From assembly GCA_027604505.1 (NCBI GenBank), contig JADIIX010000056.1:121104-141103 (forward strand): a stretch of 20,000 bases of DNA, given 5' to 3'. Position numbers and translations under genes: made by a program. Below the pieces are notes generated by a model. That model did not search any database, was not told the DNA's origin, and worked only from the letters and a program-made list of their open reading frames with translations. Below, one piece after another: positions 6,192 through 18,530 of this stretch; position 1 is the stretch's first letter, and each line of letters opens with the position of its first letter. The stretch is from Gonapodya sp. JEL0774. Taxonomy: Eukaryota.

Positions 6192-8995
6192 TTATGTACT
6201 CTTCTGACTAAGTGCGAAGGATTTGAGAGGGTCGGATCGTCGCTTTTGAGCCTAGTGGGATGACAAGGACAGTTCGAGGTGCCTGCCCGTCCCGCTCTTA
6301 GTGCAATTCCTTACCTTGCTTAAAGTAGCCCTGCCCCTGTTAGAAGCTCTGTCTCTCCCCCTTCCCTTTTCTGTGCCACCAGTCCGTTCACCCTCACCAA
6401 CCGTCACTGCACTCTTTTTCGGTGCCAAGTAACTGGGCACGTGCTTAAGATGTGATTGCACTCTTGCAGGGTGGAGGGGTCGATCAGACCGAAGCGCACG
6501 AAGATCGTTGGGGTTCGACGAAAAATGAGCCTTGGCGAAGTTGAGAGATTTTGAAAGTTTGTCCGAGAGAAACGAGAGAACGAGCACGTCAGATTGTTTG
6601 AAGAAATGAACTGAGACCTCCGTCCGCTTGTGGCACCCCTCAGCGTGGAATGATTTGATTAGCTTTACGGTTTGTGTCTCCATCCCCGAATATGCGGGTG
6701 CAGCGCAAGAATGACGTTGTCCAATCATCACCAGGGTACAAACTTGGACATTTCCCCAAATCAAACGAAATCGACGTTGAACGCACCTTCAACCTCTCGC
6801 TCTCTAACATCTCCCTCCTCACTTCCCTCACCCGCGCCTCCCTCACCGCTGCCTTTGTCACTGCCCGAACTGCATCAGCCACCCTGTATCTGAAGCCATC
6901 AACCGCTTCCTTATCCACAACGAGATCTGCGACCGTTCCACGTGCCTGGACCTTTGGAAATAATTTAATTCGGTCGACTAGCGCTCGTTCCGACACGGAA
7001 CCATCGTGGTCGATCAAAGATGCCGGGTTGGGTTCTGCCCAAAGAGATATAGCGACGCCCTGGCGGGACAAACCTCTCGCCGTCCGGCCGATTCGGTGGA
7101 GATACTGAGATGGTGATGAAGGTAGGTCGAAATTGATAACGGCATCGAGGCGGCGAAAATCGAGTCCTCGAGAAGGGTGGAAGGTGGCAGATGCAGAATT
7201 TCCGGTCTTGGGGCGCTTCGACTTTATTACAACACTGGTGGAAGCCGGTGCGTGGCGCTTACGGGTCTTGGTTGCAACAGAGGAGGACGATGGAGCCTCG
7301 ACTTCATCCGTCCGTTCCGATTCCTTTGAATCATCAGCGGCATCCTCGTCTGTCATCTCGTCGTCCTCTATTTCTGCAGAATCGCTCGCCAGAACGACTC
7401 CGTACATGCCCTGGCCAACGCCCTCAATGACCCTCACTCTACTCTCCACTGGCAAGCCCTCGTCGACGACAGCTGCTCGAATGCCAAATTGCTCTAGAAA
7501 CAGGCGTACACGATAGCAGCGCGGGGGATCACGGCAGAATATAAGAATACGGGAGGTAGATGTCAGAGGTGAGGGCCGCAATGTCAGAAGATAGTGGAGT
7601 AGGTGGAACTTTGAGGCATCTGTGGGGCAGCTGCGTAGGGAAAGGGTTCTCGCTAAAGTAAACGACCCGGCCAAACAGAGAAGATGAGAAAGTGGCAAAC
7701 GGCTCACCTTGCAAAGTGCTGCGAAATTTTACCGGTCCCAGGTACAAGTTCTTTGATTTCTTCGCCGACTTGTACAGTCCCACCCAGTCCGTCCTCATCT
7801 CCCTGAACCGTTACAACGGCCGCACCTTTACCGAATTCTGCAATCCAGTCGCTTTCTCGATCACGTTGCTCCCTTGCGCCAGTTCCAGAAACCGCAGTTG
7901 CCGACACCAGCCACCTTTGCACACCTCCCCCTCCAGCGCCAGCTGCAATAGCCTTTCGAACATCATCGGCGTAGCCAAAATTAGACAAGAGGTCGCATTC
8001 ATCAAGGACCAGGGAGTGAAAGTGTGAAGGATCGAAAAGCAAGCGAGAGGGAAGATCGGAGTGTTTAGATGGAAGGGCGTCGAGGGAGGAGAGGAGGAGG
8101 GACAACCGGGAGGGAGTAGAGATAAGAATGTCGGTCGCGGGGTGGGGCGGGAGAAAGAGAGAGCTTGGTTCCGCAGCATTGGATGGCAGAGGTGGGAGTA
8201 GCTCGTGTCAGAATAGTGGTCTTTGTTACGTTTGAGGTAAAAATCATCACAATATATGACCTCCTTCGCATGAGATGTAAAACGAACGTTCAAGGTCCTT
8301 TTGACTCAATAATGCTTGCGCCCCACATCAAACAACGTAGGGGTCGTTTGCGCACCCACCTTGGCTCGACGCCTTTGTTCACTTCCAGCTCCTTGACTAA
8401 ATTGACGATCCTTATTTGCGATTTGCAATATTGGGAGAAATCGACGGCTGCTTTGAGGACCTGGGCTGCCAGCTCTTTAGTAGGCACGAGGATGAGTGCA
8501 CGGATTGCGTCAAGCTAAATTCATGGTAAAAACGGGGGGAGACGAAATGAAAGGTGATTAACACATTTGAGGGAAGTACAATCGGCTCGTATCGTGACCA
8601 CTCATTGCAGATACCTTTACACTCCCATTGGTATCAACATCCCCCTTTGAATCAACGGCTACATTGCCAGACTTCTCCGCCAAAATTTTACTGATGATTG
8701 GCAAGAGGTATGCGGCAGTTTTCCCTGATCCTGTTCGTGCGTTGGCCACTATATCTCTTCCCTGAACCATCGCTAGAGGAATCGCCAATGACTGGATAGG
8801 CGAGGGCACGCGGAATCCCAGTCGCACGAGAGCACGCTGCAGGCGGGCATCGAGAGGCATGGAGGCAAAAGAAACGGCTGGCGCTGCGTTGGCGGTTGTT
8901 ATGGCGGTTCCGTCCGTCAAGACGTCGTCAGTGGAGTTGTCTTGGACTTCTCCTGGTAAAGGAGGCGGACTGGAAGGGGGATTGGGAGCTCGCAT
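6192..8995 (-). CDS. DBP9: ATP-dependent RNA helicase Dbp9/DDX56 (60S biogenesis), 6 exons, ~703 aa
   Basis: Model complement(join(6192..6251,6315..6530,6787..7630,7708..8163,8360..8514,8615..8995)) = 2112 nt, in frame. Helicase motifs: Q motif (GFRVPSPIQ), ARTGSGKT, VPTKEL, STPSR, DECD, SAT, SRGLDF, YLHRIGRTAR. Dbp9-type C-terminal signatures: FRYRVADAVRAVT, HFSSNPNDLRALRSDRPLHPARVQSHLKHVPSYL, DPLKSF. Confidence 0.93.
6633..6739 (-). ncRNA. Intronic box C/D guide RNA (snoRNA/scaRNA-like), predicted U6 snRNA 2'-O-methylation guide
   Basis: Lies in DBP9 intron 4 on the host strand. Terminal stem GUACCCU/GGGGUGC, box C GUGAUGA (6731-6725), box D CUGA (6643-6640), D'-like CUGC (6703-6700) and C'-like AUGGAGA (6683-6677) bridged by a CCCG/CGGG hairpin. 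The 12-nt guide GUCAUUCUUGCG is complementary to the U6 segment CGCAAGGAUGAC (human sequence) with one G-U pair. Confidence 0.8.
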
Positions 8996-14693: not shown

Positions 14694-15173
14694 GCTTGTG
14701 CGATTATAGTTGAATCGCGTGTTCCGAATCTTGGGCTTTTCGGCTCGAATGGTCCGCCTGGCCGGTGCCAATGAAAATGCCCGATCAGCGACCCACACTC
14801 GTCATCCCTCAAGATAATTCCATCGCCTCGCACCGATTCATTTGATGTAATCTGCAGAAGAATAACTTCACGCGACAACTGGAATGAGCGAGCCAGGACT
14901 GCGAGGACTCGCGGACGGACCACTCGAGTCTTTAACCCCTTCCTCCCCGGGCACCGCAATGTTTCGATCAAATATGTGCATTCTCCAATTCCCACCCACA
15001 CATTCACAATCTAAACAACTACCAACATAGTCCAGGGCCCCCACACCGGCCAGCCCCTCGCTACGCTCCAGTCATGCGCACTCCACACCGTGGACCAAGT
15101 TCTTCCCGCCTCTGAGTCCACGCAAAGAGCACACCTCCACAGCCATGTCGACGGCAGGCGGTGCCAGGTGGAT

Positions 15174-18100
15174 CTAGGCTGACGCCTTGGTGAGCGCGGC
15201 CTTGTCGAGGGCGGCCTTGCGGGCAGCCATCTTGGCAACGCCTAGCGGGGGGGTGGGTGGAGGTAGAGTGGAGAGGGCGAGCAGTGGCATCACGTGCAAA
15301 GGGGGGATGATGCGTGGGGTAGAGCAAGAAGGAACAACAATGAGTCGCACGCTCGGCACACCGAGGGACAAGGGAGACAACAAGCTCATCCTACGCACTC
15401 TTGATCCCCATGATACCTCCACCCCAGGTCCTCCTGATCTCGGTGTTATCGTTGAAGTTGGCCTTGAAGGCCGACACGAGGTCCGCGAGCTCCTTCTTGT
15501 CCTAAAGACCCAAGGTAAAGAGCGACAAAATAAACAAATAAATCAATACGAAAAAAAGGGCACCCGATGAACACGCTCGCGTCGCAAAACGACCACCGCA
15601 AGCAAACGTCACTCGAAAACTCACCTCAGGCTTCACCTCGGTAACGGCCAACGCCGTGGCGGTCTTCTTGTGGACGACGGCTCCGAGGCGGGCCTTGCCC
15701 TTGACAATGGCGTACGGGACACCCATCTTGCGGCAGAGGGCCGGCAACCAGAGGACGAGCTAAAATAAATAAAAAAAAAGCAAAAGAAAAAGAAGAAGAA
15801 AAAGGGCCGAGGGAGACAAAGAGCATGAGAATAATTCGTCGGAGGTAGAGAGGGGTGGGAAGGGGAAAGGCCACGCCGCGATTTTTCTCAAAAAAAAAAC
15901 CAACAAAACAAGTCCGTTCTAGGGCGCGGAATGCGGGTACACAGACAACCGACCGCGCCAACGTCCCGGCTCCACGGAGCCCAAGTGCGGGGGAAAACAA
16001 GTGTGTGTTGTTGTTACACAGACACACACTTTCTCGCAAGACACCCTTTTGTTGTATGCCCCCCGCGTTTGCGTGCGCATGTACCAACAGTCTGCGCCGG
16101 TCCGGATGACCGCGTCCCCCCGGACCCATCCCATCCCACAGGATGGGCGGCCAAAAAGGAAACCGAACAGACGTGGATAACCGCGGGCAACAAAAGTTGT
16201 TTTCCCCCCGTGACCGCGCCCCAATGTCGCCTCGCCGGTCGGTGTACGCCACTGACTCGCAGGCCCGATTCCGAGCCCGCCGACCCCCCTTGTGGGGGGG
16301 GGGAAGGAAGCGAGGAAAAGGCGCACTACGACGGACCATCACGACACGGCAAGGGCGGCACCTCCACACACAAAACACCAAAGAACGACCACACCATAGA
16401 GCCATACCGTGTCCGGGATCCCGGGGTTAATCACTCGCACGACACCTTCGTAGCCCCCGGGCTACGCGGGCCGGGGAGGACAAGAGCCCGGCGGACCACG
16501 AGGCGCGTGGCGGGACGGTGGGTGATGCACGCGGGGAACAGGCGGGCCAACGACACGCACAAAACCGAATCCACCAGATAAAAAAGGAAAAACACCAAAC
16601 CACGTCCCCAAACACATCCTTCCACCCCATACATACTCCCCGCCCTCTCGTCGTCACCGGTGCTGCGTAACTCGCTGGCCGGCGACTAGGGCGGGGGTGG
16701 TCTCGACAATTTGTATGGGGGTGTGAGATGAGATGGGACGGGCGGGTTTCCCCCCCCTGGGGACACCGTGCGGTGCATAGGACGGGTCATTGAACGTCGC
16801 GGGGGCATGAGCTGGAGAGAGTGTGGTGTGTGGTGTGTTGGTGTGTTGGTGTGTTCGTGTGTGTCGCGTGCTTGCTGTGGTCTGGTCGTGTGTGTACGAA
16901 TGTGCATTGTTGTGCGGTGGAACGGACGAGAAAACAGAGTGGCCGATATTGTGCGCGTTGCGTTGGCGAGGCGCACGCGCACACGAGAGAGAGAAAAAAA
17001 AGGCGGCGGGGGCGCTCGCGGCGCGGCCAGGCAAAAAACGGCTTTCCCCCCTTCCCCGACCAACGAGGTCACATGAGTTACCCACCTCGATAGGGTCCAC
17101 ATCATCCGCAATCACGACAAACGCCGCCTTCTTGTTCTCCACGAGAGCCGTAATGTGGTTGATGCCGTACTTGACGACGAGGGGTTTCTTGCCCGCGTCG
17201 GGCTTGGCGCCGGCCGCGGTGGCCGTGGCGGCGGCAGTCAGACGGACCTTCTTGTCGGCCTTGGACTCGGGACGGTACTTGACCAGGAGCTTGAAGAGTT
17301 GGGTAGCTGGGGGGGGGGGGAAGGGGGGCGGGGGAAGGGGAAGGTAGGTTGGCGTTGTACATACAGGGGTGCAGAGAGTGTGTGAGAACGAGACGGGGGA
17401 GACAAGACAACACATCATCGGTCCGCCAGGGCACCATGAAAAAACCAAATGGGGTCAATATATGGACCACTCTCTCTCCCGATCCCACCGTGGGATGAAA
17501 ACCCAAATGGGTCAATTTGTCCGTATAGGGCACCTCCGTTCCGTTGCGCTTCCGTTCACTCCAGGCCCAGGTCGGGGCCGCCTCGGCCTCCGGCTATTAC
17601 CCACCAGTGTTCTTATCCAACGTCTTTGTAAACTGGTTGATGGCCGGAGGCACCTTGAGCCTCTTTTGGAGGATGGCCTTTTGCCTCTGGAGGCGGATGT
17701 ATTCGGGCCACTTGACGAAGCGGGTGAGGTCGCGGGTGGGTTGGATGGCTTGGCCTGGGTTGGGGAGTCGGTGTGTGTGTGTGGGAGGGGGGTAAGGAGG
17801 GGGCGGGGGGGTAAGGAGGGGTGTGTGTGAGAGAGGGAATGGGGGGACTCTGCCATGGACTCTGCCATGGACCGATCAATAGACTTCCATTGGTCCATAT
17901 GGGCTTCACCGCCCATATGCCTATATGGACCGCGAGGAGTCACTCGCCTCCGGCGGACTATGCCCCTCGCTGACGCTTTCGCTCACCTCCGGCCGGCGAG
18001 GAATCAATCGCCACCGGCGGACTACCTCCCTTCGGTCGGGCGAGGCGCTCGCTGACGCTTGGGCTCCACAGTACTCACCGATTCCAAAGTTCCTTGGAGC

Positions 18101-18530
18101 CTTCTCAATGAGAGGGTTCTTTGGTGCCTTTGCGGTCTTGCCCTTGATGGGGTAAGGGGCGGGAGCGACCTTCTTTCCTTTGGGAGCCTTGGGCTGGGGT
18201 TGGTGGGTTGGGTAGGTGGGGTGTGTAGGTGTGTGGGGGGGAGAGAAGGGGAAGGAAGGAGGGGGGGTTGGGTGGTGGGGGAGAGGAAGGGGATGGAAAG
18301 GGGGGAGAAGGCGGGGCAGGGGAGGGATGGGNNNNNNNNNNCCCCCCGGGGCGCGCCGCCGGGCCCGGGGCGGGAGGGGCATGGGAATGGGGATGGGAAT
18401 GGGAATGGGGGGGTCAGGTCAAACCAGCACCCCCAACCACGTCCATCGACCGATTCCCATGGCGCCCACGTGACTCCTGCTCCAGAATTCCGCTCTTTGT
18501 GGTCTGTGTGTCTGCTGCGACGCTTACCAT
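15174..18530 (-). CDS. RPL8: 60S ribosomal protein eL8 (L7a / yeast L8), 7 exons, 264 aa
   Basis: Model complement(join(15174..15241,15399..15501,15625..15759,17086..17306,17605..17754,18079..18193,18528..18530)) = 795 nt. Conserved peptides: [114 protein letters not shown]. The first coding exon is ATG alone. Confidence 0.97.
16625..16720 (-). promoter_or_regulatory. Three-helix RNA hairpin overlapping the cassette stop codon and 5' splice site
   Basis: Nested pairings on the transcribed strand: CCCCAUACA/UGUAUGGGG (9 bp), CCCCGCCCU/AGGGCGGGG (9 bp), GUCGCCGG/CCGGUGAC (8 bp, one G-U). Confidence 0.7.
16637..16811 (-). other. Candidate poison (PTC-containing) cassette exon within RPL8 intron 4
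   Basis: Acceptor ...cacactctctccAG|CTC at 16812/16811, preceded by a C/A-rich tract like those before the intron 1 and intron 2 acceptors. In-frame TAG at 16688-16686. Consensus donor GTATGT at 16636. Length 175 nt (frameshifting). Confidence 0.6.
17436..17545. repeat. Duplicated ~24-nt module around a hairpin in RPL8 intron 3
   Basis: atgaaaaaaccaaatggggtcaat (~17436) and atgaaaacccaaatgggtcaat (~17495), with the atcccac-c-gtgggat palindrome between them. Both are flanked by gtccg..agggcacc. Confidence 0.7.
17846..18060. repeat. GC-rich direct repeats and palindromes in RPL8 intron 2
   Basis: Two copies of gcgagga.tca.tcgcc.ccggcggacta...ctcgctgacgctt (~17932-17978 and ~17996-18060), a tandem gactctgccatg x2, and the hairpin catatgggc-ttcacc-gcccatatg. 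Confidence 0.75.
18332..18341. other. Assembly gap (10 N) inside G-rich RPL8 intron 1
   Basis: Run of N flanked by G/C homopolymer tracts. Confidence 0.99.

What the first reader, a model, noticed from the sequence alone, without database searches (positions are those of the whole stretch)
6633..6739. Box C/D RNA in a DBP9 intron predicted to methylate spliceosomal U6 at the Am70-equivalent
Seen: a 107-nt unit on the host strand with a 7-bp terminal stem, perfect C (GUGAUGA) and D (CUGA) boxes, and degenerate D'/C' boxes joined by a small hairpin. It ends ~100 nt before the 3' splice site of the longest DBP9 intron. Seen plus established: the 12 nt upstream of D' (GUCAUUCUUGCG, 6715-6704) pair with U6 C66-C77 (human numbering) with one G-U, and the D+5 rule lands exactly on A70, a known 2'-O-methylated U6 residue (S. 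pombe Am64). Inference: this is an unannotated U6 guide in an early-diverging fungus, hosted by a ribosome-biogenesis helicase gene. It would point to deep conservation of U6 internal stem-loop methylation.
Basis: partly seen in the sequence, partly recalled or inferred. Interest (0 to 1): 0.88.

Follow-up and report, generated by a model that had tools for sequence, protein, structure and literature searches.

The report
U6-targeting snoRNA in fungal DBP9 intron
An intron of a ribosome-assembly helicase gene in the aquatic fungus Gonapodya holds a sequence with all the marks of a small guide RNA, predicted to direct a methyl mark onto one adenosine of the splicing RNA U6, a job already assigned to other RNAs in fission yeast and mammals but not found in print for this early-branching fungal group.

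Summary
Minus strand 6739-6633 has a 7-bp terminal stem (2 G-U), perfect C and D boxes in kink-turn geometry, and lies in the 256-nt fourth intron of DBP9 (Gonapodya sp. JEL0774), 102 nt before the 3' splice site; 0 of 20000 intron shuffles give such a unit. Bases 6715-6703 form a 13-bp helix (one G-U) with U6 G65-C77; the only near-consensus D' box (CUGC) puts D+5 on A70, a known methylated base; 0 of 20000 shuffles match this. It works like S. pombe sno530 (Am64) and mammalian SNORD23 (assigned to Am70), and the mouse SNORD23 guide covers the same U6 site. It is not an Rfam SNORD23 member by sequence. Untested: this organism's own U6, expression, methylation and conservation in relatives (no genome, no reads). 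Deep conservation of U6 stem-loop methylation was already known from yeast and mammals, so this is a new member of a known kind. The scan holds no look-alike, but noted an A70-matching guide on a different snoRNA elsewhere.

The parts
6192..8995 (-). Host gene DBP9/DDX56 (DEAD-box helicase), six exons, 703 aa
6531..6786 (-). Intron 4 (256 nt, GT..AG), the longest; splits SERLK|AHF
   Evidence: junction read without insertion in 15 of 15 other proteins aligned
6633..6739 (-). Predicted box C/D snoRNA, 107 nt including the terminal stem
6733..6739 (-). 5' arm of terminal stem
6725..6731 (-). Box C, GUGAUGA (perfect)
6704..6715 (-). D' guide, pairs U6 C66-C77 (one G-U at G72); D+5 base 6708 faces A70
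6700..6703 (-). Box D', CUGC (one mismatch to CUGA)
   Evidence: the only 4-mer of seven tested with fewer than 3 mismatches
6685..6699 (-). Small hairpin between D' and C'
   Evidence: sequence; (register uncertain)
6677..6683 (-). Box C'-like AUGGAGA (two mismatches); can pair with CUGC at 3 of 4 positions
   Evidence: sequence, inferred
6644..6676 (-). D-side segment with no convincing target found
6640..6643 (-). Box D, CUGA (perfect)
6633..6639 (-). 3' arm of terminal stem
6588..6592 (-). Branch-point-like CTGAC, 57 nt before the 3' splice site with no AG in between
   Evidence: sequence

Best explanation
The 107-nt unit in DBP9 intron 4 has box C/D snoRNA anatomy and a 12-nt element complementary to the U6 internal stem-loop, and it is likely released from the spliced intron and predicted to direct fibrillarin to 2'-O-methylate the adenosine equivalent to human U6 A70. 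Shown: intron position, boxes, stem, kink-turn geometry, 13-bp complementarity to conserved U6, register on A70. Inferred from established box C/D biology: co-transcription with DBP9, splicing, debranching and exonuclease trimming to the protein-protected C/D motif, loading of Snu13/Nop56/Nop58/Nop1, opening of the weak U6 stem-loop (-2.7 against -19 to -22 kcal/mol for the guide duplex) and methyl transfer at D'+5. Help from a LARP7/Pof8-type protein is a guess by analogy. The D-side looks like a non-guiding side.
For: Unit beyond chance: 0 of 20000 shuffles. Guide of 11 bp or more from D+2 next to a near-CUGA box: 9 of 20000 shuffles, and 0 of 20000 on one of the eight known human U6 Nm sites (sites from PMC7960923). 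It is the longest of three helices of 11 bp or more between the whole window (both strands) and U6. The target stretch is upper-case conserved in the Rfam U6 consensus and matches the mouse U6 primer printed in PMC11863803. The same base has guides in S. pombe (sno530 knockout removes Am64, also 12 nt with one non-Watson-Crick pair) and mammals (SNORD23 D' element). Spacing from the 5' splice site (47 nt) lies in the 41-60 nt range reported for N. crassa intronic snoRNAs. The intron is the longest in a ribosome-biogenesis gene.
Against: This organism's U6 was not available; a pombe-like or other change in the stem-loop could break the duplex. The ten U6 copies used were fetched with a pattern that contains the guide's complement, so their agreement is circular. 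No orthologous intron could be fetched, so conservation is untested. No Rfam hit even at E 10 or E 5. Outside guide and boxes the unit resembles the SNORD23-like locus L201 no more than chance (1913 of 5000 shuffles). In L201 the best D' box (CAGA) would put D+5 on C68, not A70, and the mammalian register has been read differently (U64 in PMC5389715; Am70 called guide-less in the 2023 preprint). The shuffles test U6 only; allowing for all rRNAs and snRNAs raises the chance of some 11-bp target to a few percent (estimate).
Confidence: 0.76

Rival explanations
1. Real snoRNA that binds the U6 stem-loop but methylates a neighbouring base (C68 or A69) or acts only as a chaperone without methylating.
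For: The SNORD23-like locus L201 covers the same U6 site but its best D' box points to C68; SNORD23 was first read as guiding U64; many novel snoRNA-target pairs show low methylation; D'/C' here are degenerate.
Against: In the window the alternatives to CUGC have 3-4 mismatches to CUGA; A70 is a mapped Nm site and C68 or A69 are not in the human list; no paper in the library held both 'Cm68' and 'U6 snRNA'.
Confidence: 0.1
2. Real snoRNA whose true target is rRNA or another RNA; the U6 match is incidental. The nearest alternative is the 18S site guided by snR41/Nc CD9, and the D side partly resembles the snR53/Nc CD11 18S guide.
For: Against the N. crassa 18S-Gm1122 site printed the D' guide pairs 5 bp, then one mismatch, then 3 bp (two more pairs at the 5' side of the site if my recollection of 18S is right). 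The last 12 nt up to and including box D resemble the Nc CD11 guide for 18S-Am793. Host is a ribosome-biogenesis gene.
Against: U6 gives 13 uninterrupted pairs; the 18S pairings are broken, and D+5 falls beside, not on, the listed methylated bases; the D-side core is only 6 bp with a mismatch at D+2. No eukaryotic rRNA could be fetched for a full scan.
Confidence: 0.07
3. A decayed snoRNA copy or a chance arrangement with no RNA product.
For: No expression data, no conservation data, no Rfam hit; fold z-score 0.51. The public gene model puts a 3' splice site 5 nt after the stem, which would leave no room for processing.
Against: Two independent rare features coincide; boxes, stem and guide are all intact; the public model's splice site adds 32 residues absent from 15 of 15 other proteins.
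Confidence: 0.07

Closest known systems
SNORD23 (Rfam RF00603; mouse Snord23 row in PMC11863803 supplement)
   Same: Box C/D RNA of 107-110 nt with terminal stem; guide just after box C and before a degenerate D'; pairs with the same U6 stretch; assigned to Am70 by chimeric eCLIP and RiboMeth-seq; small hairpin and degenerate C' follow.
   Different: No covariance-model match; the G-rich 3' half of SNORD23 is absent; the Gonapodya guide is longer (13 bp against 9 contiguous pairs read from the mouse row) and its D' is nearer to consensus. Human host gene is NOP53/GLTSCR2 (recalled, from no call), not DBP9.
S. pombe sno530 (SPNCRNA.530; PMC10484740, passages read)
   Same: Guides the same base (Am64), 12 nt of complementarity with one non-Watson-Crick pair; knockout-proven.
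   Different: sno530 has an imperfect C box and its boxes are not predicted to flank a hairpin; the Gonapodya RNA is canonical.
N. crassa Nc_CD_54 (Pezizomycotina; 'U6-70' in PMC5824354)
   Same: Fungal box C/D RNA with a D' guide to the U6 stem-loop.
   Different: A false friend: its guide pairs the 5' side of the stem-loop, and D'+5 falls on the human C60 equivalent by my reading; the paper's 70 is an alignment number (it gives N. crassa U6-55). None of the N. crassa box C/D RNAs listed in that file carries the A70 guide (read by eye).
Other U6 guides: SNORD7/snoZ30 (Am47), SNORD8/9 (Am53), SNORD67 (Cm60), SNORD94 (Cm62), SNORD10 (Cm77)
   Same: Same class and substrate.
   Different: Different target bases; no Rfam match.

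Membership tests
Box C/D snoRNA (class) | Box C (RUGAUGA) near the 5' end and box D (CUGA) near the 3' end, 70-130 nt apart | tested here: met
Box C/D snoRNA (class) | Terminal stem and kink-turn geometry | tested here: met
   7-bp stem, 3-nt bulge ending in U
Box C/D snoRNA (class) | Internal D'/C' pair | tested here: inconclusive
   CUGC and AUGGAGA are degenerate but placed around a hairpin
Box C/D snoRNA (class) | Antisense element of 10 nt or more directly before D or D' | tested here: met
   12 nt to U6 of other eukaryotes
Box C/D snoRNA (class) | Stable discrete RNA bound by fibrillarin complex | not testable with these tools
   no sequencing run was listed
U6 Am70 guides (function of SNORD23 and sno530) | D+5 base faces U6 A70 | tested here: met
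   on L001 U6 whose numbering fits human A43, C60, U64, A70, G72, C77
U6 Am70 guides (function of SNORD23 and sno530) | Pairing with the organism's own U6, and Nm at that base | not testable with these tools
   no genome held
SNORD23 (RF00603) | Covariance-model score at the gathering threshold (64 bits) or a significant E-value | tested here: not met
   no hit at E 10; the same model finds L201 at E 1.1e-6
SNORD23 (RF00603) | Similarity outside guide and boxes | tested here: not met
   against L201: 1913 of 5000 shuffles score as well
sno530 | Sequence homology | not testable with these tools
   sequence not in the text or the readable part of the supplement
Nc_CD_54 / SNORD67-type | Guide to the 5' side of the stem-loop (C60 region) | tested here: not met
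   guides compared

The most novel reading that the evidence does not exclude
The Gonapodya RNA, SNORD23, the SNORD23-like locus L201 and sno530 descend from one U6 stem-loop guide that was present before animals and fungi split and has been missed by family models because only the guide and box layout survive. The Gonapodya copy is the most canonical form, and its near-consensus D' box independently fixes the disputed register of SNORD23 at A70.
Probability: 0.35. Interest if true: 0.55.

Novelty: new member of a known kind. Interest (0 to 1): 0.38.

Why it matters
If true it gives a third lineage with a guide for U6 Am70, from near the base of fungi, and the first with textbook anatomy: the fission-yeast guide is atypical and the mammalian assignment is recent and has been read three ways (U64, Am70, no guide). 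It offers a clean seed for finding this guide across fungi and protists and for asking whether it is gained and lost together with LARP7/Pof8 and with sequence changes in the stem-loop. It also corrects the public DBP9 gene model. It is not a new mechanism, and in S. pombe loss of this mark alone had little effect on U4/U6 pairing.

Tried and rejected
Whole genome: none held. Sequencing runs: none was listed, no RNA holder listed; no evidence either way. Rfam on the window: nothing at gathering score or E 5; chance hits only on the narrow region. Orthologous DBP9 loci: viral collection gave none with P0002 and 24 distant helicases with the alignment. Box-plus-guide pattern: 98 viral loci served as noise (3 of 98 with a 7-bp stem under a lenient rule); the metagenome scan covered 8 of 64 parts and returned 118 of about 960 stretches; 2 of 118 had a 7-bp stem, 3 were sent to Rfam and 1 (L201) matched SNORD23; no fungal homologue was recognised, and that pattern could not match mouse-type SNORD23. 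Wider flanks of L201 were not available. Eukaryotic rRNA for a rival-target scan: not found (searches gave nothing or matches whose scores and lengths I read as bacterial; one search failed). D-side guide against U6, a partial U2 and a U4 of other organisms: 7, 7 and 9 bp, unconvincing. 'U6-70' of Nc_CD_54 first looked like prior art for this site and was rejected on its sequence. sno530 sequence not obtained. Paper searches for a LARP7-binding box, 'MeU6' and 'Cm68' gave nothing relevant. The bacterial promoter scan does not apply to this organism.

Full report
Observation. The minus strand from 6739 to 6633 reads as a 107-nt unit with a 7-bp terminal stem (two G-U pairs), box C GUGAUGA (6731-6725) and box D CUGA (6643-6640). 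The stem is followed by a three-base bulge ending in U and then the GA of box C, while box D runs straight into the 3' arm: the kink-turn geometry of box C/D RNAs (own knowledge). It is the only RUGAUGA..CUGA pair on the minus strand of the window; two others lie on the plus strand without a stem. In 20000 dinucleotide shuffles of the intron, 49 had the boxes, 6 had boxes with a stem of 4 bp or more and none with 7 bp; 300 shuffled windows held 0.003 such units on average. The fold energy itself is ordinary (z 0.51). Rfam knows nothing here.

Host. The large exon matches a protein of Gonapodya sp. JEL0774 at 100% identity over 84% of the query, G. prolifera at 59% and DDX56/DBP9 proteins below that; Pfam DEAD and Helicase_C are present. 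A six-exon model with GT-AG introns of 100, 196, 77, 256 and 63 nt gives 703 residues and scores better against G. prolifera than the public model (1945 against 1635). The public model ends intron 4 five bases after the stem and so inserts 32 residues that none of the 15 other aligned proteins has. The true intron is 6786-6531; the unit starts 47 nt after the 5' site and ends 102 nt before the 3' site, with a branch-point-like CTGAC 57 nt before the AG. N. crassa intronic snoRNAs lie mainly 41-60 nt from the 5' site (PMC2780460, passages).

Target. No genome is held, so I fetched U6 genes from other eukaryotes present as contamination in prokaryotic assemblies: 16 loci, 15 scanned, 12 with a U6 hit, 10 used after dropping two copies from the same contig as L004. 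These were selected with a pattern that includes the guide's complement, so their agreement proves nothing; the independent points are the conserved Rfam U6 consensus and the mouse U6 primer in PMC11863803. On L001, 107 nt long and in human numbering, bases 6715-6703 pair with G65-C77 in 13 uninterrupted pairs with one G-U at G72 (-19.3 kcal/mol for 12 nt, -22.5 for 13). Of seven possible D' positions only CUGC is within one mismatch of CUGA, and it places D+5 on A70. Shuffling the 81 inner bases gave a 12-bp helix on U6 in 2 of 3000; a helix of 11 bp or more beside a near-CUGA box in 9 of 20000, and on one of the eight known human Nm sites in 0 of 20000 (9 bp or more: 112 and 13). It is also the longest window-to-U6 helix in 40 kb, ahead of two 11-bp ones. 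These tests consider U6 only; with all rRNAs and snRNAs as possible targets the chance of some 11-bp guide rises to a few percent by my estimate, before asking for a known site.

Rivals tested. The N. crassa target list (supplement 4, read whole) offers one partial alternative, the 18S-Gm1122 site: five pairs, a mismatch and three pairs. The D side has no good target on U6, a partial U2 or a U4; its last 12 bases resemble the Nc CD11 guide for 18S-Am793 but give only a 6-bp core. I could not fetch eukaryotic rRNA for a full scan.

Mechanism. Shown: position, anatomy, complementarity, register. Inferred: release from the spliced intron, assembly with Snu13, Nop56, Nop58 and fibrillarin, invasion of the weak U6 stem-loop (-2.7 kcal/mol) and methylation of A70. 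In human U6, A70 pairs with U64 in the stem-loop, and the stem-loop methylations raise m2G72 formation more than tenfold in vitro (PMC13109388, passages and first part of the discussion). In S. pombe, Am64 slightly stabilises U4/U6 and loss of its guide does not disturb U4/U6 pairing (PMC10484740, passages).

Relation to known RNAs. sno530 guides S. pombe Am64 (knockout), has 12 nt of complementarity with one non-Watson-Crick pair and atypical boxes; its sequence was not in what I could read (figure S2C and table S3 not seen and may bear on homology). SNORD23 was tied to U6 by chimeric reads with a predicted U64 that is not methylated (PMC5389715, passages), left without a site in a 2023 preprint that calls Am70 guide-less (10.1101/2023.06.22.546166, passages; a 2021 review table also lists none, PMC7960923) and placed on Am70 by its D' box in PMC11863803 (passages, section 7 part 1 of 2, section 9, supplement rows), where the mouse interaction fell below the significance cut-off. 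The mouse sequence has its guide at the same place and for the same U6 stretch as ours. The fungal survey PMC5824354 (passages and section 26; supplements not readable) does not name Gonapodya and lists Nc_CD_54 as guiding 'U6-70', but that RNA's sequence pairs the other side of the stem-loop, at the human C60 equivalent by my reading. PMC6984369 does not mention SNORD23; PMC12724518 only confirms Am70. Searches showed no report of an Am70 guide in chytrid-grade fungi; the library lacks most subscription papers.

Relatives. A box-plus-guide pattern over 8 of 64 parts of the metagenome collection returned 118 loci, mostly noise like the 98 viral ones. One, L201, is a divergent SNORD23 (40.8 bits, E 1.1e-6, below the gathering score of 64) in AT-rich non-coding DNA of an undetermined organism. 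It pairs U64-A76, but its best D' box points to C68 and only a two-mismatch box to A70, which tells against a single fixed register in the family. It shares a 9-base C'-region motif with the window unit, no more than chance (1913 of 5000). So the unit works like SNORD23 and sno530, fails sequence membership of RF00603, and common descent stays open.

Earlier notes of the scan: no look-alike sequence, nothing from this genome, no DBP9-hosted case among those shown; several U6 C62 guides in fungal NFS1 introns and one A70-matching second guide on an snR55-type RNA, which, if real, shows that this guide can arise on unrelated snoRNAs. None was tested here.

Verdict. Very probably a real intronic box C/D snoRNA (about 0.93) and probably the U6 Am70 guide of this fungus (0.76). 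New member of a known kind; interest 0.38.

Noticed in passing
window 6531-6628 and about 7494-7735, minus strand: The public gene model (P0001) uses an early 3' splice site in intron 4 (32 extra residues) and drops a conserved stretch around intron 3; homologues support the 703-aa model.
   Followed up: yes
window 8250-8208, minus strand (DBP9 intron 2, 196 nt): A second GTGATGA..CTGA pair only 43 nt long, without a terminal stem; the CTGAC may simply be the branch point. The second-longest intron could hide another small RNA with a degenerate upstream C box; Rfam finds nothing.
   Followed up: partly
window 6663-6657, minus strand: Seven perfect pairs with U6 49-55 on the D side of the unit, 14 nt before box D; chance level alone, but placed where an extra U6 contact could help.
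   Followed up: partly
window 6651-6640, minus strand: The bases before and including box D resemble the N. crassa CD11 guide for 18S-Am793/U6-Am47; unexplained, possibly a relic or chance.
   Followed up: partly
L201:296-404, minus strand: Divergent SNORD23 below the Rfam gathering score, with a 13-bp U6 guide and a CAGA box that would point to C68; organism and host gene undetermined.
   Followed up: partly
PMC5824354 section 26 and PMC2780460 supplement 1: Nc_CD_54 'U6-70' is by its sequence a guide for the human C60 equivalent (SNORD67-like), not for A70; easy to misquote.
   Followed up: yes
window about 15170-18530, minus strand: A gene that reads like ribosomal protein eL8/RPL7A (recognised from memory, not tested) with long introns of up to about 1.3 kb; a typical snoRNA host, but no perfect box pair and no Rfam hit.
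   Followed up: no
window 7685-7675 and 18631-18621, minus strand: Two 11-bp matches to U6 (41-51 and 58-68) without box C/D context; chance level.
   Followed up: partly
L001, L002, L004, L005, L007, L009-L011, L013-L016: Prokaryotic genome assemblies carrying eukaryotic U6 genes, some beside tRNA, U2 or U4 genes; read as binning contamination.
   Followed up: no
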